A DNA stretch of 64,000 nucleotides from a virus (taxonomy: Duplodnaviria > Heunggongvirae > Uroviricota > Caudoviricetes), in IMG/VR virus record IMGVR_UViG_3300037524_001291; one strand, written 5' to 3'. The notes beneath the pieces were generated by a model. That model was not told where the DNA came from, ran no database searches, and saw nothing but the letters and a program-made list of their open reading frames with translations. Shown here piece after piece: positions 20,719-39,165 of this stretch (within the stretch, counting starts at the first letter, position 1; each line of letters opens with the position of its first letter). A program made the position numbers and the translations under genes.

Positions 20719-21531
20719 TTATAATAGGTCTTTTACTCTATCTCTTAAATCTGAGAGTGGTGCTACTTCTTTTCTTTTTTCTAATTTTCCTGATATTTTA
20801 CTACTCCCTTTCACTATATTAGTACCTTTTATAACAGCGTTTCCAAATACTTTAGCTTTTTCTTGTATTTGAGCTTTCTCAGATACTTCAGCATTACCGA
20901 ATACCTCAGCATTATCAAATAATTTAGCTTCACCTGATACTTTAGCTTCTCCGTATACCTTAGAGTTTCCAGAGAGGTATGCAGTACCAGTTATCACAGC
21001 TTTTTCAGACACCTCAGCATTATCGGTTATTTCAACTTCCCCATTGATGGAGGCATTACCAAAAACTCTAGCTTTTGAATTTATATCACATTTACCTCTT
21101 ATTCTAGAATCACCATAGATGTCAGCTTCACCTCTAATATTACCATCATGTAAAATAGCTCTTTGTCTAAGTTGAGCTTTTCCAGAAATACTACCACCCT
21201 GCATCTGAGCCCAATCATAGACCTCAGCATTGTCCATAACAGTAGAGTCTCCATAAACAGAGGCTCTTCTAAAGACCTTAGCATTATCACATACTAGGGC
21301 TGTGTCTCTTATTAGGGCGTTATCATAGACCCTTGCATTTCCTATTACCATAGCATTATCATAAATCCAGCAGTATCCAGAATCAGAGAGATTAGACTCA
21401 CTTTCAACCCAACCACCTAATACTCCAGCAAGAACATCACTTCTTAAAGGTATTCTAGATTCTATTCGATATAAGGTTTTACCCATCAATGTTTTTGTTA
21501 TGTCTAATCTAAGTTTATATTTATCATTCAA
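20719..21531 (-). CDS. Hexapeptide-repeat left-handed beta-helix protein with C-terminal tag
   Basis: LYRIES...GGWVESESNLS..GYCW head, A.V.[GD][DN] repeats, tail RKEVAPLSDLRDRVKDLL. Confidence 0.9.
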   Translation of the reverse strand: MNDKYKLRLDITKTLMGKTLYRIESRIPLRSDVLAGVLGGWVESESNLSDSGYCWIYDNAMVIGNARVYDNALIRDTALVCDNAKVFRRASVYGDSTVMDNAEVYDWAQMQGGSISGKAQLRQRAILHDGNIRGEADIYGDSRIRGKCDINSKARVFGNASINGEVEITDNAEVSEKAVITGTAYLSGNSKVYGEAKVSGEAKLFDNAEVFGNAEVSEKAQIQEKAKVFGNAVIKGTNIVKGSSKISGKLEKRKEVAPLSDLRDRVKDLL

Positions 21532-21546
21532 AGAATGTCACATCCT

Positions 21547-22467
21547 TTATAGTAAGTCTTTTACTCTAGCTTTTAAATCTGAGAGTGGGGCTACCTCTTT
21601 TCTTTCAGGTGTTACACCTTCATAGTCTCCTACTGTATATTCTCCTCTATCTATTTCTAAATTTCCATAAATTTTAGTACGACCATATACCTTAACATTT
21701 CCAAATACTTTTGCTTTTTCAAATACTTCAGCTTCTCCATAGACTAGAGCTATATCATATACTCTAACATCTCCATATACATTAGCATTTCCATATACCT
21801 TAGCTTTTCCATATACCTTGGCGTTATCATATACCTTAGCTTTTCCAAATACTTTAGCTTCTCCTGATACCTGAGCTTCTCCAAATACAAAAACATTTCC
21901 ATCTATTTTAGCTTCTCCATATACTCTAACATCTCCATATACCTTAGCTTCTCCATATACCTTAGCTTTTCCATATACTTTTGCTCTTCCATAGACTAGA
22001 GCTTCTCCAGCTATCCAAGCTTCCCCATATACACTAGCATTTCTAAATATTTGAGCATTTCCATATACCCTAGCTTTCCCTTCTAATGTAGCACTTTCAT
22101 ATACTCTAGCTTCTCCATAAGCAACAGACTTAGCCATTAACCAACCATGATCATATATACGGGCTTTTCCATAGACCTTAGCATTATCAGAAACTATTGT
22201 ATCATCAAATACCTCAGCTTCTCCTGATACAATGGCATTATTTGTTACCAAAGCATTTCCATATACCTTGGCATCTTCACAAACAATAGCATCATCATAT
22301 ACCCAACAATCTCCCACAGAAGATAGGTTAGATTCTTTCTCTATATAACCACCTAACTCCCCTGCCTTTTTAACACTTTTAAATTTTACTAGGGCTCTTA
22401 TTCTTGTTACTGTGCTACTATTTACTTTTTTTGTATCACTATATACAAACTCATATTTTTTATTCAT
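21547..22467 (-). CDS. Hexapeptide-repeat beta-helix protein with C-terminal tag
   Basis: AKVYG repeats; tail RKEVAPLSDLKARVKDLL. Confidence 0.9.
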   Translation of the reverse strand: MNKKYEFVYSDTKKVNSSTVTRIRALVKFKSVKKAGELGGYIEKESNLSSVGDCWVYDDAIVCEDAKVYGNALVTNNAIVSGEAEVFDDTIVSDNAKVYGKARIYDHGWLMAKSVAYGEARVYESATLEGKARVYGNAQIFRNASVYGEAWIAGEALVYGRAKVYGKAKVYGEAKVYGDVRVYGEAKIDGNVFVFGEAQVSGEAKVFGKAKVYDNAKVYGKAKVYGNANVYGDVRVYDIALVYGEAEVFEKAKVFGNVKVYGRTKIYGNLEIDRGEYTVGDYEGVTPERKEVAPLSDLKARVKDLL

Positions 22468-22483
22468 TTATATAACCACTCCC

Positions 22484-22969
22484 TTAGCTTAGTTCTTTTC
22501 CAATCTGGTTAATAAGTTCTTTTATTTCTTGGTAGCGTCTTTTACAATCTCCAAGTAGAGGTAAAACATTTTTGAAGGTTTCATTACCTTTATAATCATT
22601 TATTAGGGTTTCTATATCCTTATAGTCCTTTTCAGCACTTATATATAAAGTTTTTAAAGACACATCAAAAGAAATATTTTTTTTCCTTATAGTAGAGCTT
22701 CCAGAGTAAACTTCTTCATTTGTAGGGACTTTGTTAATGATAGAATTAAGAACATCTTTATAGTTTTTCTTTTCCATTTTAGCTAATTTTTTAACATGTT
22801 CTATACCTTTATCATATAGTGGGTTTGTTCCATCACCCATAATAAGAGCTTCTCCATAAGTATCTAATATATATTTTTTATAATCTTTAGGGTTTGTAGG
22901 TATTTTTTCTTCATTTACTCTAACTTCTTGTAATCCTTCAAGAATCCCTTTAATTGATTTATCATTCAT
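22484..22969 (-). CDS. Hypothetical protein
   Basis: ATG after AGGAGG. Confidence 0.8.
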   Translation of the reverse strand: MNDKSIKGILEGLQEVRVNEEKIPTNPKDYKKYILDTYGEALIMGDGTNPLYDKGIEHVKKLAKMEKKNYKDVLNSIINKVPTNEEVYSGSSTIRKKNISFDVSLKTLYISAEKDYKDIETLINDYKGNETFKNVLPLLGDCKRRYQEIKELINQIGKELS

Positions 22970-23132
22970 TAGAAAAATCCTCCTCATAAACTATTATACG
23001 TATTATATATATATCCCAATATCAAAAGATAAAAATTAAAAATACCTCCCAAAAACCCCAAATCTTAAAATACCCAACCTTAAATTTTAAAGTGTCATTT
23101 TTTATTTGTGGACTAGTTGAAAGTATAAATTC

Positions 23133-23329
23133 GAGTAAGGTGAAATACCAAAAACACCTCAAATATTTAATACAAATTAAAAAACACATTAAATATTTAC
23201 AGTTTGATAAAAATGAACTAAAACACCCTCAAATAGACATAATATTCTTAGTATGTAAAATTAAAATACTAAATCATTTTTTAAACTTATATTAAATATT
23301 TAAGGTGTTTTAGTGTTTTTACCTTAGTC
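23133..23329. repeat. Imperfect 40-bp inverted repeat with internal AAAACAC..AAATA copies
   Basis: 23133-23172 versus the reverse complement of 23290-23329: 33/40 by eye. Confidence 0.7.
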
Positions 23330-23602
23330 AAAATTCATGTTTTGCACTAGTTGAAATACACTTTTACTCACTTAAAAAATTTAAGTTGAGTTTTATGAAA
23401 TATATTACTAGTAATTTTATTGTTTTTTAAGATGTTAGGGTACTTTTCTACAAATCTCACGTTAGGATAAGTTTTAACGAATGTGACTTATAAGATGTAA
23501 ATTTATATTACCCTACCTCTAAAAATTGATTTAAGAGCATTGTACGAGGTCATATAGTATCTTATTCTATATTATTTAAAAAGATATAATCACAAAGAAA
23601 AA

Positions 23603-23628
23603 AGATGAGGGAGGTGAGTCTCTCATCT
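23603..23628 (-). terminator. Intrinsic terminator
   Basis: AGATGAG/CTCATCT stem followed by TTTTTTCTTT on the minus strand. Confidence 0.6.
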
Positions 23629-23679
23629 ATCCAAAATATTGTAGGGTATTTTGGGTTTAATTGAGGGTAGTGCATCTCT

Positions 23680-24885
23680 CTATTGTTTGGAGAGTACTCC
23701 AAACATATTATGAATACTATCATAATATACAATACTACCATCTTCTAACACTTGCATTAGGGATTTAGTTCCTTTACTAAAACCAGTAGTAGAAGTAACA
23801 CCATCAGAATCCACATAAGCTTCTACAGAACCGTCTATATTAATGATATCTACTTCTCCACCCTTAGAGGCATAGAACTTATCATTTAGAGAAGATATAC
23901 TATCATATTTACCTGTAAAAGTTTCAACACGTTCCCAAGTTCCCTTACTCATACTGTATTTATCGAGAGCCATACCACCAACATTAGATTGTAGAACATA
24001 GAGATATTCAGTAGTAGGTATAGCTTGTAGTACACTATTATAACTTCCAGCGTCACCGACAACATCTACATATTTTCTAGAAGTATCTTTAACTCTAAAT
24101 ACATCTAAAGCACTTCCATCTTTTCTACTATAGACAATAGCACCTTTAGAATCAACGTAAGCGAAATCATCAGAACCAAACATCCAATTAAAAGACTTAT
24201 CGGCAACAACGGGTTTGAACTCAGGACTTACTTGTATTAGAGTTCCTCTATAATCAGGTTTTCCACCATTTTTTACAAATTTACCAGACATAAATACTTT
24301 ATTTGTTTTAGGATCATGTACGAGTTTGTACCCTCTATATACTGAGAGTCTTTCTATTTTACCCAAGTCATTTTTATATCTAAGTTTTAGAGTACTAAGT
24401 TTTTTAATAGTAGTTACTTCATTAGTTTTGGGGTCATATTTCCTTAAGAATTGATTTTTATATTCAGTAGTTTCATTAACTTTAGTCCATCCATTTTCAT
24501 TTACCAGACTACCATTCCAATAGCTTCCCATACCATCATAAGGTACAGAACCATCAATGAACCATACATTTTTATCATTATCTACTACCATACTCCAAAC
24601 AGTACCGATAGAAGCTTCATCAAATGTACCATTTTTATGTCCAAAATCACCACTACCAAAGAGTAATTTATCAGTAAATTTTGAATCCGTATCTTCATCA
24701 ATAGTTACATCAGTAGTATAGTCTTCAAAAGTTAGGGTCATCTCAGAGTTTTGGGTATCTCCTGTTAGGGCTTTGTCTTCTACTTCAAAAGTTTTTGTTA
24801 GGTCATAAGCTCCTACATTGATACTCATAAGTGTACTCATTATTACTACTACCAATAGTGTTAATAGTTTTTTCATTATGAACAC
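23680..24885 (-). CDS. Secreted protein, probable beta-propeller
   Basis: Signal peptide MKKLLTLLVVVIMSTLMSINVGA; repeated beta-rich blades. Confidence 0.7.
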   Translation of the reverse strand: MFIMKKLLTLLVVVIMSTLMSINVGAYDLTKTFEVEDKALTGDTQNSEMTLTFEDYTTDVTIDEDTDSKFTDKLLFGSGDFGHKNGTFDEASIGTVWSMVVDNDKNVWFIDGSVPYDGMGSYWNGSLVNENGWTKVNETTEYKNQFLRKYDPKTNEVTTIKKLSTLKLRYKNDLGKIERLSVYRGYKLVHDPKTNKVFMSGKFVKNGGKPDYRGTLIQVSPEFKPVVADKSFNWMFGSDDFAYVDSKGAIVYSRKDGSALDVFRVKDTSRKYVDVVGDAGSYNSVLQAIPTTEYLYVLQSNVGGMALDKYSMSKGTWERVETFTGKYDSISSLNDKFYASKGGEVDIINIDGSVEAYVDSDGVTSTTGFSKGTKSLMQVLEDGSIVYYDSIHNMFGVLSKQ

Positions 24886-24931
24886 CCTCCCTCTCTCAAT
24901 TAACTTTCCCCCATATATTCCCTACTATTTA

Positions 24932-24960
24932 AGTATACCATAATTAAATAAAAATGTCAA
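24932..24960 (-). promoter_or_regulatory. sigmaA-type promoter
   Basis: TTGACA-17 nt-TATACT with TG extension. Confidence 0.75.
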
Positions 24961-25009
24961 GATAGCACCATTATTTAGGTACAATACCTGACACTTTTAT
25001 TTAACGAGT

Positions 25010-25942
25010 CTAATATTTTAAATATCCTAGGCGTAAAAATTCTAGATGAAGTTCATGAGCTATTTCAATTATTTGAGGGTGAGCGTCTTTATGGTCTCTA
25101 AGAATGAAGAATTCGTTCCATCCCTGTATGTTGTTGGTCATAACGAGTTCAGTTTTTAGGGAGTTTGTTAGAACGCTTCTAGCTTCTTGTGGTGTAGATT
25201 TAAAAAACTTTATTAGGGTGAGGTATGATATTTCGCTGACTTTATTGGCATACAGCCAAATAAATCTTTTAAGACCTTTTGTATAGAAAGGAGAGTCTAT
25301 GATAGTTATTCCTTTTTGCTTACCGTAATTGATGTATCTAGTGCTAGCTTGGCTAAAAGAGAAAGTTCTATGTCGTACAATTTCATTTGCTATAGCTCTA
25401 TCGCAAATAACCTTAGCTGAAATATATTTATGTAGATTTCTAATTCGAGGTTCTAGGTTTTGTATGTCTTCAAAAGAGAGTTCTTTTTTCACAAGGGCTT
25501 TTTGTATAGAGGTAATGTCTCCATATATATCTTTTCCACCATAAAGAGTAGGGTATCTTTTAGATAGGAAGGATAATATTATTTGTAAGAAGATATTGCT
25601 AGATTTTTTATAAAGGTCAACAAATCCCCTAGTGCTACCAGAGATAAGGTAGAGTTCATCATGTCTATCATCAATGGTACAAGAGAAGGTCATATTTAAG
25701 AATTTAGGGTTTAGTTCTTTTATTTCGTAATAGAGTTGTTGAGAAACTTCTAAGACAAATACATGGTGTTCTGTTACACTATAATGTTTTTTATCTATTA
25801 GAGAAGAGATAAATTTTACATGACTATCAGCTGTTATTTTATCTTCGCTATTATAACATACCCTACCTATATATTCTATTTTTCTATTAGGGTCTATTTC
25901 CATATCAAATATTATAGATGCTTTAGGTTTTATAATTCTCAT
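25010..25942 (-). CDS. thyX: FAD-dependent thymidylate synthase
   Basis: GRVCYNSE, H.SV.EH, RAIANEIVRHRTFSFSQASTRY signature, ARSVL, AHPQI. Confidence 0.95.
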   Translation of the reverse strand: MRIIKPKASIIFDMEIDPNRKIEYIGRVCYNSEDKITADSHVKFISSLIDKKHYSVTEHHVFVLEVSQQLYYEIKELNPKFLNMTFSCTIDDRHDELYLISGSTRGFVDLYKKSSNIFLQIILSFLSKRYPTLYGGKDIYGDITSIQKALVKKELSFEDIQNLEPRIRNLHKYISAKVICDRAIANEIVRHRTFSFSQASTRYINYGKQKGITIIDSPFYTKGLKRFIWLYANKVSEISYLTLIKFFKSTPQEARSVLTNSLKTELVMTNNIQGWNEFFILRDHKDAHPQIIEIAHELHLEFLRLGYLKY

Positions 25943-25969
25943 TCATCATCCTCCGCACAAAAAATTATT

Positions 25970-26566
25970 TTAAAGTATATCTTGTCGAATTAAAGCATCT
26001 CGGAGTCTTGCTGTTACTACCTTTCTTTCTGGAAAATCTATCTTTTCAATATCCTCAGTACCATCCAAGACAGTATCATCTGTTACTATTATATCTCCAC
26101 TTACCTCAGCAGTTCCTTTTATTATAGCTCTCCCTGACACTTTAGCTTTCCCTGATACAGTGGTTTGTCCTGATACACTAGCTTTACCAGACACTATACT
26201 TTGTCCTGATACAAGAGCTTTTCCATAAACTTTAGCGAGCTCATAGACCTGAGCATTTCCAGATATAATAGCATTCTCAGATATTTGTGCTTTTCCAGCT
26301 ATTTGAGCCTTTCCAAATACTTTAGCATTTCCAGACACTGTAGCGTTTTCAGTTACAAAAGCATTTTCAAAGACTTTAGCGTTACCAAATACCCAACAAT
26401 TATTATTTGCAGATATATTGGCTTCTTTTTCTATATATCCACCAAGGTCACCTTCTTTAATGTTACTAAAGGATTTTAAAGCTCTTATTCTTGTTAGGGT
26501 TCTTCCATTTTCATTTTTAGTATTGTCTTTTACCAGTTCATATTTATAATTCATATATAGAATCAC
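25970..26566 (-). CDS. Hexapeptide-repeat beta-helix protein (diverged tail)
   Basis: TLTRIRALKSF...GDLGGYIE head; A.V.G repeats. Confidence 0.9.
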   Translation of the reverse strand: MILYMNYKYELVKDNTKNENGRTLTRIRALKSFSNIKEGDLGGYIEKEANISANNNCWVFGNAKVFENAFVTENATVSGNAKVFGKAQIAGKAQISENAIISGNAQVYELAKVYGKALVSGQSIVSGKASVSGQTTVSGKAKVSGRAIIKGTAEVSGDIIVTDDTVLDGTEDIEKIDFPERKVVTARLRDALIRQDIL

Positions 26567-26569
26567 TCC

Positions 26570-27289
26570 TTATAGAATATCTTTTACTCTAGCTTTTAAA
26601 TCAGAGAGAGGGGCTATTTCTCTTTTTATTTTACCGTCTAATTTTGTATCTCCCTCAATATCACTATATCCCTTTACATCAGTATCACCTGATATTCGAG
26701 CTTTTCCCCTTACTACAGCGTTTCCATGTATTGTAGCCTTTCCAAGTATATGAGCTTCTCCATATATCCAAGCCTTTTCAAATACTTTGGCTTCTCCAGA
26801 TAACCAAGCCTTTTCAAATATATGAGCATCTCCATATATCTCAACATTCTCACCGACCTCAGCCTCTCCATATACAAAAGAACTTCCATACACTTTAACA
26901 TTTCCTCTTAACTTAGCCTTATCATAAACGTTAGCATATCCGAATATAGATATCTTTCCAGATATACTAGCATTTCCAAAAACTTTAGCATTATCATATA
27001 CTTTAGCACTTCCTAATATCTTAGCTTCCCTAAATACCTCAGCATTTCCAAAGACCTCAGAGCTATTAGCTATTTGAGCATCTCCAAATACTTTAGAATT
27101 TTGATAGGCTTTACAATAGGGATATACCCAGCAGTTATCCGAGTGAGATAAGTTATCTTCTTTTTCTATATATCCACCAAGGTCACCCTTTTTTATACTT
27201 AAGAAAGTTTTTAAAGCTCTTATTCTTGTTAGGGTTCTTCCATTATATTTTATGGTATCATCAGTTACTAACTCATATTTTTCAAACAT
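26570..27289 (-). CDS. Hexapeptide-repeat beta-helix protein with C-terminal tag
   Basis: Tail KREIAPLSDLKARVKDIL. Confidence 0.9.
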   Translation of the reverse strand: MFEKYELVTDDTIKYNGRTLTRIRALKTFLSIKKGDLGGYIEKEDNLSHSDNCWVYPYCKAYQNSKVFGDAQIANSSEVFGNAEVFREAKILGSAKVYDNAKVFGNASISGKISIFGYANVYDKAKLRGNVKVYGSSFVYGEAEVGENVEIYGDAHIFEKAWLSGEAKVFEKAWIYGEAHILGKATIHGNAVVRGKARISGDTDVKGYSDIEGDTKLDGKIKREIAPLSDLKARVKDIL

Positions 27290-27304
27290 TATGTAATCAC
27301 TCCC

Positions 27305-28201
27305 TTATAATAGGTCTTTTACTCTAGCTTTTAAATCCGAGAGAGGAGCTATTTCTTTTCTTTCAGGTTTTCCATCAACATCATAGTCTACTTTCATAGT
27401 ATTATTAATTAGTAATTTTCCTTTAAGTATCGCCTTTCCAAAAACCTCAGCTTTATCACAAATTCTTATATCTCCTGATATATTAGCATCTCCATATACC
27501 CTAGCGTTTCCTTCTATAATAGCATTTCCAGAGACCTTAGCATATTGAGATACAGAAGCTGTGTCTCTGATGTGAGAAGAACCAAAAATTTCAGTATTTC
27601 CAAGGACAGAGGCATCTCCATAGATCTGAGCTTTTCCAAATATTTTACAAGATTCCATGATATGAGCTGTCCCATATATTTTAGCATTTCCCTCTACACG
27701 AGAGTAACCTGAGATAGTTCCTCCATATACCTCAGCCTTTCCACCTATCTCAGCATCTCCGAATATATATACATCATCTCCATAGACCTTAGCTTTTCCA
27801 AATAAAATAGCTTTTCCTGATATATTAGCATGTCCAAAGACTTGTACATCATCATATATAGTAACCTTTTCAGCTATATAACAATCTCCATAAATCTTAG
27901 CATCACCATGTATAGAAGCATCTTCATAAATTCTAGCGTTTCCACATACTTTGGCATTTTCATATACTTTAGCTCTTCCAAACACCCTAGCATTTTCATA
28001 TACTTTAGCATTTCCATATACTTTAGCATTATCACCAATCCAACAATCCCCCTTATGGGATAAGTTAGATTCTTTCTCTATATATCCACCTAAGTCACCA
28101 GAATCATAAAAGTAAGAGTCTTTTAAAGCTCTTATTCTTGTTAGGGTTATGTTTCCTTCCTTTATGGTATCATCTTTTACAAACTCATATTTTTTATCCA
28201 T
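27305..28201 (-). CDS. Hexapeptide-repeat beta-helix protein with C-terminal tag
   Basis: Tail RKEIAPLSDLKARVKDLL. Confidence 0.9.
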   Translation of the reverse strand: MDKKYEFVKDDTIKEGNITLTRIRALKDSYFYDSGDLGGYIEKESNLSHKGDCWIGDNAKVYGNAKVYENARVFGRAKVYENAKVCGNARIYEDASIHGDAKIYGDCYIAEKVTIYDDVQVFGHANISGKAILFGKAKVYGDDVYIFGDAEIGGKAEVYGGTISGYSRVEGNAKIYGTAHIMESCKIFGKAQIYGDASVLGNTEIFGSSHIRDTASVSQYAKVSGNAIIEGNARVYGDANISGDIRICDKAEVFGKAILKGKLLINNTMKVDYDVDGKPERKEIAPLSDLKARVKDLL

Positions 28202-28215: not shown

Positions 28216-29130
28216 TTATAATAGGTCTTTTACTCTAGCTTTTAAATCTGAGAGTGGGGCTATTTCTTTTCTTTTAGGGGCTATTGTAAAATTTCTATTC
28301 TCATCCCCAAACACTTCATCATCACCATATACCTCTGCTTGACCATATACCGTAGCTAGTCCATATATTTTAGCCCTACCATATACCTGTGCCTTATTAA
28401 ATACCTGAGCTTTTTCAAACACTCGAGCAAGTCCATATACCTGAGCTTTTTCATATATATGTGCATTTCCATATATCTGAGCATTTCCATATACTCTAGC
28501 TTCCCCATATACAAAAGCTTCTTCAAAAAGACAAGCTTCTTCAAATATCTTGGCTTTATCCTCTACAGCAGCATTTCCATATATCTTAGCTTTTCCATAT
28601 ACCTCAGCCTCTCCTTTTACCTCTGCTGTTCCATATATTTTAGCTTCTCCAGATATTTTAGCCTTCCCAGAAAAAATTTTAGCCTTTCTAAATACTTGAG
28701 CTTCATCATATATACCAGCTTCTCCAGACACCTCTGCATCTCCATATACCTGTGCATTACCAAATATCTTAGCGTAAGCAAACACCCTAGAACTACCATA
28801 GACTATAGCATTTCCAAATACTGAAGACATATCATATACTTTAGCTTCTCCCAATACCTTAGCTTTTTCAAATATATGTGCATCTCCATATACAGAAGCA
28901 TTTCCAAATACAACGGCATCTCCTTCTACTTTAGCATCTTCAAATACTTTAGCTGTATGAAATACCCAACAAATATTCTTAACAGATAGGTTGCTTTCTT
29001 TTTCTATATATCCACCCAAATCTCCTTTTTTTACATCTCCAAAAGACCTTAAAGCTCTTATTCTTGTTAATATTTTCCCCATAAATTTTATGGTATCATC
29101 AGTTACAAACTCATATTTAGTATTAGGCAT
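28216..29130 (-). CDS. Hexapeptide-repeat beta-helix protein with C-terminal tag
   Basis: Tail RKEIAPLSDLKARVKDLL. Confidence 0.9.
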   Translation of the reverse strand: MPNTKYEFVTDDTIKFMGKILTRIRALRSFGDVKKGDLGGYIEKESNLSVKNICWVFHTAKVFEDAKVEGDAVVFGNASVYGDAHIFEKAKVLGEAKVYDMSSVFGNAIVYGSSRVFAYAKIFGNAQVYGDAEVSGEAGIYDEAQVFRKAKIFSGKAKISGEAKIYGTAEVKGEAEVYGKAKIYGNAAVEDKAKIFEEACLFEEAFVYGEARVYGNAQIYGNAHIYEKAQVYGLARVFEKAQVFNKAQVYGRAKIYGLATVYGQAEVYGDDEVFGDENRNFTIAPKRKEIAPLSDLKARVKDLL

Positions 29131-32445: not shown

Positions 32446-32496
32446 AATATTTATAACACTCCTTTTCTAAATTAAATACAAAAAACCTCAATACTA

Positions 32497-32769
32497 TTAG
32501 GACTTTTTAAGATTTTTCTTTAGTACACCCACAAGTGTGTTATCTTTTATATGTACAGGTATTTTATTATATAATCTCCTCTCTCTACCTAAATTTTTTA
32601 AAAAGTTTTCTAAGACAGCGATCCTATTAGAAATAAAGACAAGTTCTTCCTCAGGACTTTTTTCTATTTCAGATAAAGAAGTTATAATCACCTCTTCTTT
32701 TGAAATAATATCATTTAATACAGTTCTATGTTTTTTTCTTGCTTTTTTTATACCCTCACTAATACCCAT
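32497..32769 (-). CDS. Hypothetical coiled-coil protein
   Basis: ORF with RBS. Confidence 0.7.
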   Translation of the reverse strand: MGISEGIKKARKKHRTVLNDIISKEEVIITSLSEIEKSPEEELVFISNRIAVLENFLKNLGRERRLYNKIPVHIKDNTLVGVLKKNLKKS

Positions 32770-32862
32770 CTAATCACTTTCCCTTCTAAAAATTATATTT
32801 TACAAGAGTTTACAATATTATAATACTGTAAAATTAGTAAAATAACAACATAGTCATACAAT

Positions 32863-34452
32863 TTAACCAAAAGTTATATCTAAACCCAGATGAAAAGTTG
32901 AAAAATCTTCTTGATAGGGTTCTTTTAGTATTCCTTTTTTTATTTCTTGTTCTCTTATTTTTTTCCATAATTTCATTTTTTCTAAGTTAGCTGTAATTTT
33001 AGAGATAAAAGGTGCTAATTCTAAAGGGTATATCTCATCATATAGTGAGTCATCTGTAGCTTTTCCTACATGATCGGCAATTACGAGATTTGTTTTAGCT
33101 CGTGTAATTGCAGTATAAATCCAAGCTCGAGCGTCTTTTCCCCAATCCACAACTACAGCTACATTAGGAAACTCAGATCCTTGAGCAGAATGGCAGGTCA
33201 TACAATAAGCGTAATCGAACTTACAAATCTTATCATCGAATACTTTTATACCGTTATCAGGTTTTACAAAAAAGTAAGAGAGTCTACTAAAGATAACTAG
33301 AGAAATATTATCTATAACATCTTTTATTCTCATTTTAATAAGGTCATTTTCTGGTTTAATTTCCAACACCTCTTGTACAATGTATATACCACCGTTAGGT
33401 ATCATACCTAATTGTACTTCGAAAGAATCTTTAATATATACATTTTTCCTACAGACAATTCTATCTCCAACTTGAGGATACATAGGGTTATATGTAAGTT
33501 TTAGTTGGTTTTTTTCAAATTCTTGTGTGTGAGGGGTAGGACAGAATCCTAAAAGTTCTCTTACTCTTCTATTAATGTAATTTTTAGTTCTATGTTGTCC
33601 TGAGATAAACTGAAAGTTATTTTTAACAAGAACCGTAAAATTATCATAAAGCTTTAAATGACTCTCTAGAATAAAAACACCTTTATTTATTTTTTTCCCA
33701 TATTTTTTAGTAATTTTGCTCATTATATCTTTAGCATAATGAGTTTTTTTATCAAGGCTGTTTACATATCGAGCCAGTTCAAGGATATCATTATCCTCTA
33801 AGTGTCTAAAGCAAACAGTGAGAGTATAAGTAGGATTTTTTATATATTTGTTCATTTTACCATTGATAGGGTTTAGTTGATTAAAATCACCTATGAGTAC
33901 TACAGGTATATGTAGCAATAATACATCTTCCATGGTATACTCATCTACCATAGATCCTTCATCCATAAGGATAACCTTAGGCGTCACTTCAAAGTCCTCA
34001 ATATCTCTAGTTAAAAACTTTACCCTCTCATTATATTCTGTGTCAGGGTCTTGTTTGTATATAGATGAATGTATTGTTCTAGGATATATTTTAAAATCTT
34101 GTAGCACTTGGTATAATCTCTTAGAAGCTGTCCCAGTAGGAGCAGCAAGAAGTATTTCACTAATATTAATACCCTTTTCAAGAAGTTGTGATACTATTTC
34201 TTTTGTTAGGGTGGTTTTTCCTGTACCAGCTTCACCACCAATAGAAAGCACCTTATAATCAAGTGTTTTTACATGATTTAGTATATCTTCTTTCTTTTGT
34301 TCATGTTTTATAAGAGCTATCTTAGCTAATTCTTTTTTATCTTTTTTATCTTTGTACTCTAGAAGAGCTTGTTCCTTAGGACTTTTATAAGTTTGTCTAT
34401 AAGCACATATACATTCTTCTAACTCTAATTCTAGTTTAATTGCTTTTCTCAT
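32863..34452 (-). CDS. SF1B helicase (RecD/Dda-like)
   Basis: GEAGTGKTT, AAPTGTA, MDEGSMV, IGDFNQL, YCMTCHSAQGSEF, IYTAITRAK. Confidence 0.93.
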   Translation of the reverse strand: MRKAIKLELELEECICAYRQTYKSPKEQALLEYKDKKDKKELAKIALIKHEQKKEDILNHVKTLDYKVLSIGGEAGTGKTTLTKEIVSQLLEKGINISEILLAAPTGTASKRLYQVLQDFKIYPRTIHSSIYKQDPDTEYNERVKFLTRDIEDFEVTPKVILMDEGSMVDEYTMEDVLLLHIPVVLIGDFNQLNPINGKMNKYIKNPTYTLTVCFRHLEDNDILELARYVNSLDKKTHYAKDIMSKITKKYGKKINKGVFILESHLKLYDNFTVLVKNNFQFISGQHRTKNYINRRVRELLGFCPTPHTQEFEKNQLKLTYNPMYPQVGDRIVCRKNVYIKDSFEVQLGMIPNGGIYIVQEVLEIKPENDLIKMRIKDVIDNISLVIFSRLSYFFVKPDNGIKVFDDKICKFDYAYCMTCHSAQGSEFPNVAVVVDWGKDARAWIYTAITRAKTNLVIADHVGKATDDSLYDEIYPLELAPFISKITANLEKMKLWKKIREQEIKKGILKEPYQEDFSTFHLGLDITFG

Positions 34453-34472
34453 CTAATTTTCTCCCAATCTAA

Positions 34473-34904
34473 TTATAATGGTTCAATAGTCAACTGTTCT
34501 TTATATAAAGCATCACATTCTACACTATCAGGAAAGTGTCCTTGTATATCAGGTAAGAGTATACGCAACACAGGTCTTCTAGACTCGGTTGTTTGAAATA
34601 GTTTTATTTTATAGTCACCTTTTAATACATTAGGTACAATCTCATTATTCGAAAATCTTTTTCCTTGTCTAACCATATCAACAATGGTATGAAACATAGC
34701 TGAAACTGTGTCAGGAGATAATTTTAAAGTTATCTGAAAATCTAGATGATTGAAAGACTCAATCAATCCATGAGTATGAGAATCTATCTTACCTACTAGG
34801 GGTATGTAGTGAATGTAAAATCCATATAACTTCATAGACTCTTTAATTATACGATCTAATTCTTCCTCAGAGGGACAACCACACTTTTTGCTCATAACAC
34901 TCAC
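34473..34904 (-). CDS. DUF4262-like protein
   Basis: HTHGL..SFNH.DFQI...LRILLPD..G.FP pattern. Confidence 0.7.
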   Translation of the reverse strand: MSVMSKKCGCPSEEELDRIIKESMKLYGFYIHYIPLVGKIDSHTHGLIESFNHLDFQITLKLSPDTVSAMFHTIVDMVRQGKRFSNNEIVPNVLKGDYKIKLFQTTESRRPVLRILLPDIQGHFPDSVECDALYKEQLTIEPL

Positions 34905-34913
34905 CTTTCTAAA

Positions 34914-35435
34914 TTATATCACTCCCCAACTATCCAGTAATACTTCTATTTCTAATTTAAAGAATATCTCACCACCAAATCTCATATCAGCTATAGTTTG
35001 TGGGACTGTCTTTTTAAAAGAAGTCCAACAACCAAATCTCTTTCCCCCAGCGGGCTTTACCTTGTGTATGGTACATATCTTTCTTTCCATATCAAACAAT
35101 ATACATGGAGAGAACTCACGTTCATGTGTATCGGGCAGTATATTTCCTGCAAATTCCTTATCAGAAACTCTTACTGCGTTTAGAATGTATCCATCTCTTA
35201 TTCCTAATTTAGCAAATGTTAGATATTTAGTATACAATTCTTTCTTATCAATCTTCAAGTATTCTGATACCCTAAACACATCACCCCTATTCCAAGTACA
35301 AGGGCTGATATGACAACATAAACCACAGCACTTACATTTTTTCTCCTTAAGTACCATATCATAGATTTCATTAGTTCTTACATTTAACTTATAATACTCT
35401 AAATCCTCATCAAATTTACTACTCATAACACTCAC
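34914..35435 (-). CDS. YkgJ-like cysteine-cluster protein
   Basis: CKCCGLCC and PCILF...CTIHKVKPAG. Confidence 0.82.
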   Translation of the reverse strand: MSVMSSKFDEDLEYYKLNVRTNEIYDMVLKEKKCKCCGLCCHISPCTWNRGDVFRVSEYLKIDKKELYTKYLTFAKLGIRDGYILNAVRVSDKEFAGNILPDTHEREFSPCILFDMERKICTIHKVKPAGGKRFGCWTSFKKTVPQTIADMRFGGEIFFKLEIEVLLDSWGVI

Positions 35436-35467
35436 CTTTCTAAATTACTTTACTCTCAATTATTTTT

Positions 35468-35662
35468 TTATTTTCTTTGTATCTTCTCTATATCTTCTTT
35501 AATTTTCATTTCATCTGAGAGTCTTAGAGCTGTCATTACCCCACATTCAAAGAATCTTCTAGCAATAGCTATAACCTCTTCTGAGGGGCAATCCTCTTCT
35601 GGTATTGGTTCTTCTCCTAATGCCTTTTCAAGTATTTCCATACACTTTTCTTTTACAGTCAT
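35468..35662 (-). CDS. Hypothetical protein
   Basis: ORF track. Confidence 0.65.
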   Translation of the reverse strand: MTVKEKCMEILEKALGEEPIPEEDCPSEEVIAIARRFFECGVMTALRLSDEMKIKEDIEKIQRK

Positions 35663-36072
35663 TTTAAATTACCCTCTTTTCTTTTTAAATTAACTCTCCA
35701 TCTACTTTTTCTTATTTCTTCTAACCATACATACTGAGAAGGTATAACATCTCCTCCATTAGGGTGAGGATCATGAACTAATTTCCCCACTGAATGTATT
35801 ACAGAATGATAACTTCCTCTAGGGCTTGTTCCCCAAACCATATAAAACTCAGTATTAGGGATATCTTTGTCGAAAAAAAGTTTGTATCCTTTAGTTTTAA
35901 GCCATTCTTCTAGAAAATCTATCCATGTATGACCTTTTCTTGTTTTATGTTCTATGAAATGAGGTATATCTTTTATAGGTAAGTGTAAGAGAGAACATAT
36001 ACAAGCTCTAAGACAATCTCCTTGTATTTTTTTCTTTTTATCTGTTAGTAGAGATTGGTATACAGGTATCAT
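35659..36072 (-). CDS. Conserved phage hypothetical protein
   Basis: GDCLRAC...SPRG..HSVI...VHDPHP. Confidence 0.75.
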   Translation of the reverse strand: MIPVYQSLLTDKKKKIQGDCLRACICSLLHLPIKDIPHFIEHKTRKGHTWIDFLEEWLKTKGYKLFFDKDIPNTEFYMVWGTSPRGSYHSVIHSVGKLVHDPHPNGGDVIPSQYVWLEEIRKSRWRVNLKRKEGNLK

Positions 36073-36636
36073 TTACAGGTTCTCCATATCTGAAAGAGTA
36101 TTAGACATAGTAGATAAGATTTTGTCTACTATATCTTGTTGTGGAGGTTCTTTATCCTCAAAAGGTACAGCTATAAGAAGTCCCATAATACTCTCCTGAT
36201 AATATATAGCTTTTATAAAAACCTTATTGAATACTTCAGAGTGGTTTGTTAGGGGTATTTGTTTATAAGTTTTTAAGATATCTCTAGGTAGGTCTTTAAA
36301 CTCATCAAAGATTTCTTTTAGATCCTGAGATATTTGGTATCCTTTTAAAAATCTTTCTTTTTGTTCATCTCCTTTAAACTCAAAGATAAAATCATGGTTA
36401 ACTATACAAATCTGTATACCTAAAGCTTTTACACCAGAGAGTACTAGATCTCTTATAATCTCATTATGTTTTTTTGAAATAATAGAATTGTATTTCTTAA
36501 CTAACAGATCCCCATTATCTGTTATGATAAGTTCTAGAGGGTCACCTTCAGATATTTTAAGTTTTTTTCTAAGTTCTTTAGGTATAACCACCCTACCTAA
36601 ATCATCTATTCTTCTTATAATACCTACATCACTCAT
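36073..36636 (-). CDS. SpoVT-like transcription regulator (AbrB domain plus GAF-like domain)
   Basis: GIIRRIDDLGRVVIPKELRKKLKISEGDPLE...KKY. Confidence 0.9.
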   Translation of the reverse strand: MSDVGIIRRIDDLGRVVIPKELRKKLKISEGDPLELIITDNGDLLVKKYNSIISKKHNEIIRDLVLSGVKALGIQICIVNHDFIFEFKGDEQKERFLKGYQISQDLKEIFDEFKDLPRDILKTYKQIPLTNHSEVFNKVFIKAIYYQESIMGLLIAVPFEDKEPPQQDIVDKILSTMSNTLSDMENL

Positions 36637-36638
36637 TC

Positions 36639-36845
36639 TTAAGTCACCCTTTCTATCTCATTTATTTTTTCTAACACCATTCTTAGGGTATTTTCTTTAA
36701 TTTTGATTCTTTTTACATCTTCAGAAGAATTTCCTACACGAGAAGCTGTTCCCTTACCATAGGTTTTTGTATCTATTATGGTCTTTTCTAACCATGTCTT
36801 AAGCTGAACAATCGTCTCCACAGGCTCTTTTTTAACAGATGTCAT
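36639..36845 (-). CDS. Hypothetical protein
   Basis: ORF with GGAGGGG RBS. Confidence 0.7.
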   Translation of the reverse strand: MTSVKKEPVETIVQLKTWLEKTIIDTKTYGKGTASRVGNSSEDVKRIKIKENTLRMVLEKINEIERVT

Positions 36846-37088
36846 AATAAAAATCCCCTCCCTATAATATCATCAGAAATACTCAAAGGATGTAGGGTTT
36901 ATTCTACATCTTCTATATAAAGTATTTATTTTTTAAACTGACGGAATATAAGATACTTTTCTAATTTAATATCTCATAATAACAATTCTATTATAACAGA
37001 GGTAAATCTAAATTAAAACATAATCTCATAATTTAAAGTAAATCTTTTTTTAACTATAAAGTCAGGATAGTAGGATTAGAGTATAAAA

Positions 37089-37120
37089 TAAAGTAGATAT
37101 AGGTATCTATATCTACTTTA
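37089..37120 (-). terminator. Intrinsic terminator (perfect 14-bp stem)
   Basis: TAAAGTAGATATAG/CTATATCTACTTTA followed by a T-tract. Confidence 0.7.
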
Positions 37121-37134
37121 TAAATCAATAATAT

Positions 37135-38013
37135 TTAGTTAGAAATAGCATTTACTTCTCTTCTAAAGCTCTCTGAAAATTCTTCTATATCTTTTTGAGT
37201 TTCATACTCATAATTATCTAATAACTCTTTTCCAGATGCCTTAACATTACCAGACACTGTAGCATCACCAGCTACTCTAACATTACCAGATATATCAGCA
37301 TTATCATATACTTCAGCCTTAATAAAGACTTTAGCATTACCATATACTTTAGCATTATCATATACTTGAGCTTCATCATATACCTGAGCATTTCCATAGA
37401 CTTTAGCCTTACCAAAGACTCTAGCGTTACCAGATACCACAGCTTTTTCATATACCTGTGCATCCCCATACACTTCAGCATTATCAAATACCAAAGCATC
37501 TCCATAGACCTTAGCTTTTTCCAATACTGTAGCTTTACCAGATACTTTAGCATTACCATAGACTTGAGCAGTGTCAGATAATTTAGCGTCTCCAAAGACT
37601 TGAGCATTACCAAAGACTTTAACATCAAAAGATAAATTAGAGTTTCCAAAGACTTGAGCCTTATCATATATATTTGAATTAGATACTTTAGCATTACCAT
37701 AGACTTTAGCATTACCATAGACTCTACTAACATCAAGGAGTTCAGCATTACCATATACTTTAGCATTACCAGATACTATAGAATAATCATCGACTAGAGC
37801 ATTATCATAGACTTTAGCTTTTTCATATGCCATAGCTCTAAGATCTACCCAACAATTTCCTTTATCAGATAGGTTGTCTTCACTTTGGATATACCCACCT
37901 AAGTCTCCCTCTTTCACTTTACCAAAACTCTTTAAAGCTTTTATTCTGTATAAGGTTGTTCCACTAAAAATTATACTCTTATCCATCAGTAATTCATATT
38001 TACTGTTAGCCAT
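37135..38013 (-). CDS. Hexapeptide-repeat beta-helix protein (different tail)
   Basis: LYRIKALKSFG...GDLGGYI head; AKVYGN repeats. Confidence 0.9.
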   Translation of the reverse strand: MANSKYELLMDKSIIFSGTTLYRIKALKSFGKVKEGDLGGYIQSEDNLSDKGNCWVDLRAMAYEKAKVYDNALVDDYSIVSGNAKVYGNAELLDVSRVYGNAKVYGNAKVSNSNIYDKAQVFGNSNLSFDVKVFGNAQVFGDAKLSDTAQVYGNAKVSGKATVLEKAKVYGDALVFDNAEVYGDAQVYEKAVVSGNARVFGKAKVYGNAQVYDEAQVYDNAKVYGNAKVFIKAEVYDNADISGNVRVAGDATVSGNVKASGKELLDNYEYETQKDIEEFSESFRREVNAISN

Positions 38014-38075
38014 TATAGTATTCCTCCTATTAAAAATATATCTTACTCAATATATATATATAAATCTTTTCATAT

Positions 38076-38738
38076 TTAAAGTAAATCTTTTACTCTATTT
38101 TTTAAATCAGAGAGTGGAGCTATTTCTTTTCTTACTTTTCCATCTAATTTTGTATCCCCAAAGATTTTTTCATCATCCTTTAATTCTACATTTCCACGTA
38201 CCTCAGCGTTTCCGTATATCTGAACATTTCCATGTATTTTAGCGTTATCAGATACTTTAGAATTACCATACACCTTAGCATTACCTGATACCTCAGAAGC
38301 ACCATATACATGAGTCTTTCCATATACCAAAGCTTCTCCAAAGATTTCAGCATTATCAAATACTTTAGCTTTTTCATATACCTCAGCACTTTCATATATC
38401 CTAGCTTTATCATATATTTCAGCGTTACCATATACCTTAGTATTTTCATATACCCGAGCTTCTCCAAATATTTTGGCATTATCAAAAACACTAGCATAGT
38501 CAAATACTTTAGCATCTCCAAATACTTTGGCATCTCCATACACAAAAGCTTGTCCACCTACCCAACACTCACCATTATGAGAAAGATTATCCTCACTCTC
38601 TATATATCCACCTCTATAATAGGCTTTCATCTTACCAAAGGATTTTAAAGCTCTTATTCTTGTTAGGGTTCTTCCTTCATATGTTATTGTGTCCTCTTTT
38701 ATAAACTCATATTTTTTATTAGGCATTAGGTTAGGCAC
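38076..38738 (-). CDS. Hexapeptide-repeat beta-helix protein with C-terminal tag
   Basis: Tail RKEIAPLSDLKNRVKDLL. Confidence 0.9.
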   Translation of the reverse strand: MPNLMPNKKYEFIKEDTITYEGRTLTRIRALKSFGKMKAYYRGGYIESEDNLSHNGECWVGGQAFVYGDAKVFGDAKVFDYASVFDNAKIFGEARVYENTKVYGNAEIYDKARIYESAEVYEKAKVFDNAEIFGEALVYGKTHVYGASEVSGNAKVYGNSKVSDNAKIHGNVQIYGNAEVRGNVELKDDEKIFGDTKLDGKVRKEIAPLSDLKNRVKDLL

Positions 38739-38742
38739 TCCT

Positions 38743-39165
38743 TTATAGTAAGTCTTTAACTCTGGCTTTTAAATCTGAGAGAGGGGCTACTTCTTTTCTT
38801 ATCTGTGCTTTTCCTTTTGCTATTCTTCTAGTTGATAAAAGTTGAGGATGGTAGTCTCCCCAGTAATAATCATCTACATCATCTAGGGTTTTATAAGGTC
38901 GTACTCTATTTATAGTGTCGTATGCTTTTGTTCCAAAAATACGCCCTGTTTCTTTCTCTATCATATAGTTACTTTGTTTAGCAACTTTAATCAACACATA
39001 TTTTTGACGATATTCAGCTGTAACAACACCATACCCCATAGAAAGAAGAGAGTCATGACCCTCATCATATAGTTTTTGTTTAATCTCATTAGATATTTTA
39101 TTTACTAGGTAGTCTACTTTACGTTTGAATTCGTCTGTAACTGGTATAACAGGGGCACCCCACAT
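38743..39165 (-). CDS. Unrelated phage protein carrying the same C-terminal tag
   Basis: No hexapeptide repeats; tail RKEVAPLSDLKARVKDLL. Confidence 0.85.
   Translation of the reverse strand: MWGAPVIPVTDEFKRKVDYLVNKISNEIKQKLYDEGHDSLLSMGYGVVTAEYRQKYVLIKVAKQSNYMIEKETGRIFGTKAYDTINRVRPYKTLDDVDDYYWGDYHPQLLSTRRIAKGKAQIRKEVAPLSDLKARVKDLL

What the first reader, a model, noticed from the sequence alone, without database searches (positions are those of the whole stretch)
20719..39165. Shared 18-aa C-terminal tag on six beta-helix proteins and one unrelated protein
Seen: (R/K)(K/R)E(V/I)APLSDL(K/R)(A/D/N)RVKD(L/I)L-stop ends ORFs 20719, 21547, 26570, 27305, 28216 and 38076, and also 38743, which has a different fold. 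It is far more conserved than the adjacent bodies, and two paralogs have other tails. Inference: either a portable addressing peptide (capsid-loading, docking or degradation signal, amphipathic helix) or a ~55-bp DNA joint, next to the following RBS, that lets gene cassettes recombine.
Basis: partly seen in the sequence, partly recalled or inferred. Interest (0 to 1): 0.75.

Follow-up and report, generated by a model that had tools for sequence, protein, structure and literature searches.

The report
Shared C-terminal docking tag, 17 phage proteins
An uncultured wetland phage of roughly 165-175 kb ends at least 17 of its proteins, built on at least seven unrelated bodies, with the same 18-residue peptide kept by strong selection on the protein, which most likely plugs them all into one shared partner, possibly the assembling virus head, though that partner is not identified.

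Summary
All seven window ORFs end in [RK][KRQ]E[IV]APLSDL[KR]xRVKD[LI]L-stop. The same genome holds ten more tagged ORFs outside the window, giving 17 in five tandem arrays: 10 YdcK-type beta-solenoids and 7 small proteins with no Pfam or PHROG family, six unrelated body types.

Synonymous divergence in the tag (pS 0.40) matches that of the solenoids' conserved N-domain (0.48). Non-synonymous divergence is four times lower (0.07 vs 0.30). So the peptide is selected, not the DNA, and the fusions are old. No RNA structure was found.

The tag is a linker plus an 11-residue amphipathic helix at the exact C-terminus. It has an a-d-a-d heptad, and only the f position varies freely. Three untagged paralogues carry diverged or truncated tags. 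The tag occurs nowhere else in 1.84 billion representative proteins.

Best reading: a portable docking peptide for one common partner. The most likely partner is the prohead. This resembles the 80alpha scaffold/CpmB C-terminal helix, encapsulin cargo peptides and, in function, the T4 capsid-targeting sequence.

The partner is unproven because the head module is missing from every assembly. A primary role as a DNA recombination joint is not supported. Earlier notes of this scan report similar tags in other phages.

The parts
20719..21531 (-). Tagged YdcK-type beta-solenoid (270 aa), last gene of array B; tag codons 20722-20775, ...KRKEVAPLSDLRDRVKDLL-stop
   Evidence: followed by a promoter-like site, not by a coupled gene
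21547..22467 (-). Tagged YdcK-type beta-solenoid (306 aa), array B; tag codons 21550-21603
25970..26566 (-). Solenoid paralogue with a diverged tag (ERKVVTARLRDALIRQDIL-stop), last gene of array C
26570..27289 (-). Tagged beta-solenoid (239 aa), array C; tag codons 26573-26626 (...KREIAPLSDLKARVKDIL)
27305..28201 (-). Tagged beta-solenoid (298 aa), array C; tag codons 27308-27361
28216..29130 (-). Tagged beta-solenoid (304 aa), first gene of array C, 7 bp after a secreted SNase-like gene; tag codons 28219-28272
37135..38013 (-). Solenoid paralogue with a truncated tag remnant (...FRREVNAISN-stop; the stop lies where the helix would begin), last gene of array D, followed by a terminator-like hairpin at 37121-37088
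38076..38738 (-). Tagged beta-solenoid (216 aa from the ATG at 38726), array D; tag codons 38079-38132. AF2 model: N-terminal beta domain, solenoid 55-196, linker, helix 205-215 = LSDLKNRVKDL
38743..39165 (-). Tagged non-solenoid protein (140 aa). The body resembles phage DUF7717 by structure and embedding only; tag codons 38746-38799
39202..39462 (-). Untagged 86-aa first gene of the array-D transcription unit, which starts after the terminator-like hairpin at 39504-39468

Best explanation
The 18-residue tail is a portable, protein-level docking peptide. It consists of a short basic lead-in ([RK][KRQ]E[IV]AP) and an 11-12-residue amphipathic helix (LSDL[KR]xRVKD[LI]L) that ends the chain and hangs on a flexible linker. 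Its job is to bring at least 17 otherwise unrelated proteins of one phage to a single common binding site. The site I think most likely is the inside of the assembling head (scaffold core or capsid protein), which would make these proteins packaged cargo.

Shown: the tag exists on 17 ORFs with at least 7 body types. It is under strong purifying selection as a peptide. It is old. It is helical in a model. It is confined to this phage lineage.

Inferred: it binds one common partner, because nearly every residue on all faces of the helix is invariant and only the heptad f position varies.

Speculative: the partner is the prohead. This rests on the largest array lying in the late structural operon between the Neck1 and tail-sheath genes, and on close precedents.
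For: 1. Portability. The tag sits on 10 solenoids and 7 small proteins with no Pfam or PHROG family; only two of those seven are related to each other. The body of 38743-39165 resembles DUF7717 proteins of 114-127 aa that end before the tag.
2. Selection on the peptide. Tag pS is 0.40 and pN 0.069. The solenoid N-domain has pS 0.48 and pN 0.30. Codon identity at identical residues is 0.69-0.71 in both. Tags on the unrelated bodies are equally diverged (pS 0.385).
3. No RNA structure: alifold finds none and the MFE z-score is about 0.
4. Always the exact C-terminus, 17 of 17, including array-terminal genes with no downstream RBS.
5. Structure. AF2 (pLDDT 82) gives linker 197-204 and helix 205-215. 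The heptad has a=L19, d=L22, a=V26, d=L29. The only freely variable position is f (A/D/N/S). The best PDB profile match, not significant, is a leucine zipper.
6. Not a membrane helix: muH 0.40-0.44 and mean hydrophobicity -0.11, with three acidic residues.
7. Context for a virion link. Array E (7 genes) lies 13 bp after a Neck1/tail-completion gene (phrog_222, 2.7e-9) and before sheath, tube and tape-measure genes.
8. Precedents. 80alpha scaffold and SaPI1 CpmB share a C-terminal 11-residue amphipathic helix plus hook on a flexible linker that docks on the capsid protein (PMC5644958). Encapsulin cargo-loading peptides are short, usually C-terminal, shared by unrelated cargo and sufficient for loading (PMC7355545). 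T-even internal proteins are diverse and share only the capsid-targeting sequence (PMC3012670; PMC7411985).
9. Three paralogues with diverged or truncated tags show the tag is a separable module.
Against: 1. No partner is identified.
2. The packaging and head module (terminase, portal, protease, scaffold, capsid) is absent from every assembly I could reach. I therefore could not test whether the scaffold or protease carries the tag, or whether the capsid protein binds it.
3. A profile search of 1.84 billion representative proteins found no further carrier such as a scaffold. This mildly disfavours the 'scaffold-tail mimic' form of the idea.
4. Four of the five arrays lie among replication and nucleotide-metabolism genes, not structural genes.
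5. The helix is not followed by a hook or RIIK motif as in 80alpha.
6. The residues before the invariant Glu (R-K-E) do not match the [LIA]-x-E sites of T4-type prohead proteases, so processing is not indicated.
7. No proteomic or expression data exist.
Confidence: 0.55

Rival explanations
1. Self-association tag. The two-heptad helices of different tagged proteins bundle with each other (a mini coiled coil). This would assemble solenoids and small proteins into homo- or hetero-oligomers, for example solenoid rods carrying small passenger proteins.
For: The tag has a canonical a-d-a-d heptad, and only the f position varies. The best PDB profile match, though not significant, is a bZIP zipper. 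Every array contains at least one solenoid, and small tagged proteins never occur without one.
Against: Eleven to twelve residues is very short for a stable coiled coil on its own. Invariance of the polar b, c, e and g positions and of the non-helical EIAP lead-in fits a specific receptor pocket better than a generic zipper. Arrays B and C contain only solenoids.
Confidence: 0.15
2. Degradation or chaperone handle. The exposed C-terminal peptide is recognised by a host or phage protease or unfoldase (as ssrA-type tags are), or by a chaperone system. This would give all tagged proteins a common lifetime or a common folding route.
For: The position is strictly the exact C-terminus, 17 of 17. The peptide is tethered and accessible.
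Against: The tag does not resemble known C-terminal degrons such as LAA-COOH (my own knowledge). Degrons usually need only a few terminal residues, whereas here 16 of 18 positions are constrained. Seven tagged genes sit in the late structural operon, where timed removal has no obvious role.
Confidence: 0.08
3. DNA-level cassette joint. The ~55-bp tag plus stop codon plus RBS is kept mainly as a recombination substrate that shuffles gene cassettes between arrays, and its translation is incidental.
For: Each body in an array is flanked by ~75-bp direct repeats (tag-TAA-(A)GGAGTG-ATTA..ATG). Tags share rare codons (CTC, GCC, GAC), so they are homologous as DNA. A 921-bp contig in another run places the first gene of array A directly before the second gene of array E.
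Against: Synonymous sites in the tag are as diverged as in the N-domain, while amino acids are four times more conserved. The frame and the stop position are invariant. Array-terminal genes keep the tag without an RBS. The A/E high-identity block is a whole-gene duplication (81% over 465 bp), not a junction at the tag. The odd contig can be an assembly chimera across a 33-nt exact repeat.
Confidence: 0.05
4. Nascent-chain or termination signal. The last 18 residues act inside the ribosome exit tunnel at the stop codon, to tune termination or re-initiation on the next gene 15-17 nt downstream.
For: The tag always abuts the stop codon. Its length fits the tunnel. All faces of the peptide are constrained. 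Genes within an array are tightly spaced with strong RBSs.
Against: Four array-terminal tagged genes have no coupled downstream gene. Known arrest peptides sit on short leader ORFs and usually end in Pro or similar residues (my own knowledge). Stalling on 17 full-size proteins would be costly.
Confidence: 0.04
5. Membrane-targeting amphipathic helix, as in MinD or FtsA, bringing the proteins to the cytoplasmic membrane.
For: The helix is C-terminal and amphipathic with flanking basic residues.
Against: The hydrophobic moment (0.40-0.44) and mean hydrophobicity (-0.11) are low. There are three invariant acidic residues and no aromatic residues. The polar face is invariant, which is not expected for lipid binding.
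Confidence: 0.05

Closest known systems
C-terminal 'helix-and-hook' of Staphylococcus phage 80alpha scaffolding protein and SaPI1 CpmB (PMC5644958)
   Same: A motif of about 16-21 residues at the exact C-terminus. It contains an 11-residue amphipathic helix tethered by a flexible linker, is shared by proteins with unrelated bodies, and is used to dock on one partner (the capsid protein N-arm).
   Different: Here no hook or RIIK motif follows the helix; instead a conserved extended lead-in (RKE[IV]AP) precedes it. There are 17 carriers rather than 2. Most carriers are encoded outside the head module. Neither a scaffold carrying the tag nor capsid binding could be examined.
Phage T4 capsid-targeting sequence on internal proteins IPI-III and Alt (PMC3012670, PMC7411985); P1 DarB N-terminal signal (PMC9024508)
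   Same: A diverse set of otherwise unrelated small phage proteins, encoded at several loci, share only one short conserved peptide that addresses them to one place.
   Different: T4 and P1 signals are N-terminal, and the T4 signal is cut off after [LI]-x-E by gp21. This tag is C-terminal, its preceding residues (R-K-E) do not fit that site, and virion location is unknown.
Encapsulin cargo-loading peptides (PMC7355545)
   Same: Short, usually C-terminal, linker-tethered peptides conserved across unrelated cargo proteins, binding the interior of an HK97-fold shell.
   Different: No encapsulin shell gene is seen in about 130 kb of this genome, the sequence motif is unrelated, and this tag is helical and heptad-like.
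YdcK-type beta-solenoid proteins of phages (PF18836; PHROG 5070/7964)
   Same: Ten tagged and four untagged proteins are clear members: N-terminal beta domain plus hexapeptide solenoid.
   Different: The family has many recurrent C-terminal tail types, but none resembles this tag among the 120 best homologues. The five paralogues of phage LfeInf share no tail. The tag is therefore a lineage-specific addition, not a family feature.
Earlier notes of this scan: C-terminal helix tag N-V-L-D-R-L-A-x-I on about 20 proteins of a jumbo-phage clade (e1-1919829), and scaffold-tail-mimic tags in other phages (e1-3428516, e1-501022 and others)
   Same: The same kind of phenomenon: one short C-terminal peptide on many unrelated proteins of one phage, with the partner unidentified or inferred to be the capsid.
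   Different: The sequences differ, and my profile found no carrier outside this phage. Those notes are unchecked AI notes. In the scaffold-mimic cases the scaffold itself carries the tag, which I could not examine here.

Membership tests
YdcK-type beta-solenoid (PF18836 / PHROG 5070, 7964): bodies of 10 tagged proteins | Significant match to the family profiles, including the N-terminal domain | tested here: met
   PF18836 up to 2.4e-21. PHROG 5070/7964 E-values from 1e-57 to 1e-103 for all window solenoids and for L007 10808-11545.
80alpha SP/CpmB-type C-terminal capsid-docking motif | Linker-tethered amphipathic helix of about 11 residues within the last 16-21 residues | tested here: met
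   The AF2 model has helix 205-215 of 216 after linker 197-204. The amphipathic a-d-a-d pattern is present.
80alpha SP/CpmB-type C-terminal capsid-docking motif | Terminal hook with an RIIK-like motif after the helix | tested here: not met
   All 17 tags end ...RVKD[LI]L-stop with the helix running to the end; there is no RIIK.
80alpha SP/CpmB-type C-terminal capsid-docking motif | The phage's own scaffolding protein carries the motif and it binds the capsid protein | not testable with these tools
   The head module is absent from every contig reached. The profile search found no other carrier.
T4-type capsid-targeting sequence | Short peptide shared by otherwise unrelated proteins at several loci | tested here: met
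   17 ORFs, at least 7 body types, 5 arrays.
T4-type capsid-targeting sequence | N-terminal position and removal at an [LI]-x-E site by the prohead protease | tested here: not met
   The tag is C-terminal. The residues before the invariant Glu are [RK]-[KRQ], not hydrophobic-x. Cleavage itself is not testable.
T4-type capsid-targeting sequence | Carriers are present in proheads or virions | not testable with these tools
   The phage is uncultured and there are no proteomes. Only three DNA metagenome runs hold it.
Encapsulin cargo-loading peptide | An encapsulin shell gene in the same operon or genome | tested here: not met
   No encapsulin or linocin family appears in the precomputed Pfam tables for about 130 kb of the genome.
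Radical-SAM-linked protein tags (earlier scan notes e1-516640 and relatives) | A dedicated radical SAM/SPASM enzyme encoded near the tagged genes | tested here: not met
   No radical SAM or SPASM family appears in any gene table of this phage (same calls). This tag is C-terminal and has no Cys or Ser-rich target.
Membrane-targeting amphipathic helix (MinD/FtsA type) | High hydrophobic moment, basic and aromatic residues, few acidic residues | tested here: not met
   muH is 0.40-0.44 and mean hydrophobicity -0.11. There are three invariant acidic residues and no aromatic residue.

The most novel reading that the evidence does not exclude
This phage runs a natural C-terminal cargo-loading system on an unusually large scale. 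One 18-residue tail loads at least 17 different proteins into the prohead, about a tenth of its genes, including ten thin rod-shaped beta-solenoids. The cargo would then be delivered into the host together with the DNA. This would be the first large C-terminal counterpart of the T4 capsid-targeting sequence. It would also give the widespread but uncharacterised phage YdcK-solenoid family a first functional setting as injected proteins.
Probability: 0.3. Interest if true: 0.85.

Novelty: new variant of a known kind. Interest (0 to 1): 0.72.

Why it matters
Short portable address peptides are rare and useful. The T4 capsid-targeting sequence and encapsulin cargo peptides became tools for packaging foreign proteins.

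This case shows a single 18-residue C-terminal peptide that evolution has placed on at least seven unrelated protein bodies. Selection has held it almost invariant through substantial synonymous divergence. That is strong evidence for a specific, transferable protein-protein interaction.

Identifying the receptor would:
- explain what about a tenth of this phage's genes are organised around;
- give a first functional setting to phage YdcK-type solenoids, a family with thousands of members and no known role;
- possibly supply a new compact docking pair.

Together with earlier scan notes of other C-terminal tags in large phages, it suggests that tag-based addressing of accessory proteins may be a common, under-described principle in large phages.

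Tried and rejected
- Complex prediction of the adjacent pair, solenoid 38076-38726 plus tagged protein 38743-39165: no verdict, score 0.00, controls not run. This is not evidence either way.
- The look-up of sequencing runs returned three wetland DNA runs kept as contigs; no RNA holder is listed.
- Tag DNA patterns found nothing in metagenome contigs (two scans) or genome contigs (one scan). In viral contigs they found only L001.
- No near match of window 20000-40000 in INPHARED phages, and no tblastn hit for 38743-39165.
- Attempts to recover the head module all failed: walking from array A, a contig overlap test, the search for related loci with the terminal TerL-like fragment, end-overlap patterns, and walking along the tail contig.
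- Foldseek of the solenoid model against the PDB gave only generic beta-helix matches with E above 0.5.
- Atlas searches for P0007 and P0009 were uninformative.
- The PDB profile search with the tag gave only non-significant hits.
- Considered and rejected: an SD-sequestering hairpin between the tag's CCA-CTC and the downstream GGAGTG. Only 7 of 17 tags have CCA, and alifold finds no structure.
- Considered and rejected: a promoter embedded in the tag. The -10-like bases fall on freely varying Leu codons.
- Considered and rejected: a DNA-mimic role for the bodies. Body pI is 5.2-9.5 with small net charge.
- Considered and rejected: a family-wide tail. LfeInf paralogues and the 120 best homologues lack it.
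- Literature searches for YdcK or 'polymer-forming cytoskeletal' proteins in phages found nothing relevant. PMC3709472 (Duda et al. 2013, HK97 protease targeting domain) is not held, so that precedent rests on my own knowledge and the paper's title only.

Full report
**1. Observation**

ORF listing and a six-frame fuzzy search confirm the finding. Seven minus-strand ORFs of the window end in [RK][KRQ]E[IV]APLSDL[KR]xRVKD[LI]L followed directly by a stop codon. Nothing similar occurs elsewhere in the window.

- Six of the ORFs are YdcK-type beta-solenoids (PF18836; PHROG 5070/7964, both of unknown function).
- The seventh, 38743-39165, has no Pfam or PHROG family, and only itself as a match in 5.8 billion proteins.
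- Its body resembles phage DUF7717 proteins by embedding (0.90) and by predicted structure (TM 0.68/0.80 over residues 8-112). Those relatives are 114-127 aa long, so they end before the tag.
25970-26566 ends ERKVVTARLRDALIRQDIL. 37135-38013 ends FRREVNAISN-stop, with the stop where the helix would begin.

**2. Extent**

The window belongs to an uncultured wetland phage. It is present in NCBI MAG GCA_025491015.1 as two contigs of 98.5 kb and 65.9 kb, in JGI samples, and on one contig of 161.8 kb.

- A degenerate DNA pattern for the tag found a second locus, L001, equivalent to L004. It holds seven tagged ORFs in a row, four of them small non-solenoid proteins.
- A profile of the last 30 residues, searched against 1.84 billion representative proteins, returned only this phage's proteins. 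Two of them were new (P0008, P0009) and lie in a third locus together with a tagged solenoid.
- The total is 17 tagged ORFs in five tandem arrays:
  - A: 3 genes, after a vWA-TerF-like gene.
  - B: 2 genes.
  - C: 3 genes plus one with a diverged tag.
  - D: 2 genes plus one with a truncated tag.
  - E: 7 genes, between a Neck1/tail-completion gene (phrog_222) and the tail sheath, tube and tape-measure genes.
- Two further untagged solenoids follow the tail-fibre genes. One of them ends TQRKSVKTVSE-stop, again cut where the helix would begin.
- The seven non-solenoid bodies have no family. Only two are related to each other, at 32% over 66 aa.
- The tag was not found in metagenome or isolate-genome contig collections or in INPHARED phages.
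- It is not a feature of the solenoid family. The 120 best homologues show several other recurrent tails but never this one, and the five paralogues of phage LfeInf share no tail.

**3. Peptide or DNA?**

- Across the 17 tags, mean pS is 0.40 and mean pN is 0.069.
- In the conserved N-terminal domain of the ten tagged solenoids, pS is 0.48 and pN is 0.30.
- Codon identity at positions with identical amino acids is 0.69-0.71 in both regions. A codon-usage null gives 0.48, and shared rare codons show that the tags are homologous as DNA.
- The tag is therefore no better conserved at silent sites than another domain of the same genes, but it is four times better conserved at replacement sites.
- Tags on the unrelated bodies are equally diverged at silent sites (pS 0.385). 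The fusions are old and each has been maintained by selection.
- RNAalifold finds no structure over the tag and junction, and the MFE z-scores average 0.
- Inside arrays the tag is followed by TAA-(A)GGAGTG-ATTA..ATG. Array-terminal genes keep the tag without any RBS.
- The only high-identity block that includes a tag (arrays A and E, 94.5% over 128 bp) belongs to a whole-gene duplication (81% over 465 bp) together with its terminator hairpin. It is not a junction at the tag.
- One 921-bp contig from another run joins the first gene of array A to the second gene of array E. The two junctions share a 33-nt exact repeat, so a k=31 assembly chimera is as likely as a real recombinant.
- I conclude that the peptide is the selected object. 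Cassette shuffling across the ~75-bp repeats is a possible by-product, not the reason the tag is conserved.

**4. Anatomy of the tag**

- An AlphaFold2 model of 38076-38726, built with a 61-sequence alignment (mean pLDDT 82), shows an N-terminal beta domain, a solenoid at 55-196, a linker at 197-204, and a helix at 205-215, which is LSDLKNRVKDL.
- The hydrophobic residues follow a heptad: a=L19, d=L22, a=V26, d=L29. Of the 18 positions, only the f position varies freely (A/D/N/S). Four others vary conservatively.
- The polar b, c, e and g positions and the non-helical lead-in E-[IV]-A-P are also invariant. This argues for a deep, specific binding site rather than a generic amphipathic contact.
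- The hydrophobic moment is modest (0.40-0.44) and three acidic residues are invariant, which argues against a lipid-binding helix.
- The best PDB profile hit, not significant, is the HY5 leucine zipper LSELENRVKDL.

**5. Most likely mechanism**

One short, tethered, exactly C-terminal helix sits on 17 proteins with at least seven bodies and is held nearly invariant. This is what a docking peptide for a single partner looks like.

I rank the assembling head as the most likely partner, for three reasons.
- The largest array is co-transcribed with neck and tail genes.
- The layout matches the 80alpha scaffold/CpmB C-terminal motif: an 11-residue amphipathic helix on a flexible linker, shared by unrelated proteins, docking on the capsid protein (PMC5644958).
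- HK97-fold shells are known to load cargo through short, usually C-terminal peptides. Examples are encapsulin cargo peptides (PMC7355545) and the proposed C-terminal targeting propeptide of the SPN3US prohead protease (PMC7411985). T-even phages address a diverse set of internal proteins with only a shared short sequence (PMC3012670).

This step is inference. The packaging and head module is missing from every assembly. All contigs break at the N-terminus of a TerL-like ORF and just upstream of Neck1. No scaffold-like carrier of the tag appeared in the profile search. Four of the five arrays lie among replication genes.

**6. Rivals**

The rivals are self-association of the tags, a degron or chaperone handle, a DNA joint, a nascent-chain signal and a membrane helix. 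Each is listed with its evidence and a refuting test. None is excluded except where stated. Together I give them about 0.4.

**7. Comparison and novelty**

Shared address peptides are a known kind of feature: the T4 capsid-targeting sequence, the P1 DarB signal, encapsulin cargo peptides and the 80alpha SP/CpmB motif. Earlier notes of this scan report other C-terminal tags in large phages. Those notes led me to the 80alpha paper, which I then read.

They also raised a radical-SAM-linked alternative. I checked it and did not find it: no such enzyme appears in about 130 kb of gene tables.

This case is a new sequence family. It is unusually large in scale, it sits mostly on a solenoid family of unknown function, and its partner is unknown. 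I class it as a new variant of a known kind, of high interest because the selection signal is clean and the receptor is experimentally reachable.

Noticed in passing
L023 9395-9946 and 10001-10993 (contig JAOQIA010000156.1, 19191-40183): Two more untagged solenoid paralogues lie directly after the tail-fibre genes. One ends TQRKSVKTVSE-stop, a truncated tag-like tail. The other (P0106, 330 aa) has its own C-terminal domain of about 110 aa. The phage thus has at least 14 solenoid paralogues.
   Followed up: partly
L020 17502-17684 and L001 1-178: Every assembly of this phage (NCBI, JGI, the 161.8-kb contig) breaks at the same two points: the N-terminus of a TerL-like ORF, and just upstream of the Neck1 gene. 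The whole packaging and head module is therefore never joined to the rest. The reason (microdiversity, introns or inteins, repeats) is unknown.
   Followed up: partly
L007 11488-11620 and L004 4510-4645: Arrays A and E end with the same tag-plus-terminator module, 94.5% identical over 128 bp and including a hairpin (AAAAGTCTAACC...GGTTAGACTTTT), although the downstream genes are unrelated.
   Followed up: yes
Logan contig of SRR12684588 (921 bp; no DNA available): P0008 (first gene of array A) is directly followed by P0005 (second gene of array E). This is either a natural cassette recombinant or a k=31 assembly chimera across a 33-nt exact repeat.
   Followed up: partly
Homologues P0014-P0133 of the solenoid family: The YdcK-solenoid family (more than 2,100 hits at E<=1e-10) has modular C-terminal tails of several recurrent types, for example ...AYKDSExSGREYERVVKYVESI..., ...DDIITVQxGKIRCKRAFILDKYEIEN and ...GGLExNPHRxEYLRLIPLINxYF. 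This suggests a general scaffold-plus-adaptor design.
   Followed up: no
window 39934-45423: Two large co-oriented genes upstream of array D: a 741-aa SLH-domain protein and a 1,084-aa protein with a signal peptide. Cell-wall-anchored proteins are unusual in a lytic-type phage genome, and they hint at an S-layer-bearing Firmicute host.
   Followed up: no
L020 13368-15800: A clamp-loader-like gene (DNA_pol3_delta2) is interrupted by an intein. The window also holds a stand-alone intein-like ORF at 49674-50681, noted by others.
   Followed up: no
L001 5714-6277: A 187-aa ORF between array E and the sheath gene has about 25 tandem I-N-P tripeptide repeats followed by (EDIQ)n repeats.
   Followed up: no
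L022 11852-17884: A 2,010-aa tail-fibre-region protein made of LRR_5, DUF285 and Flg_new repeats.
   Followed up: no
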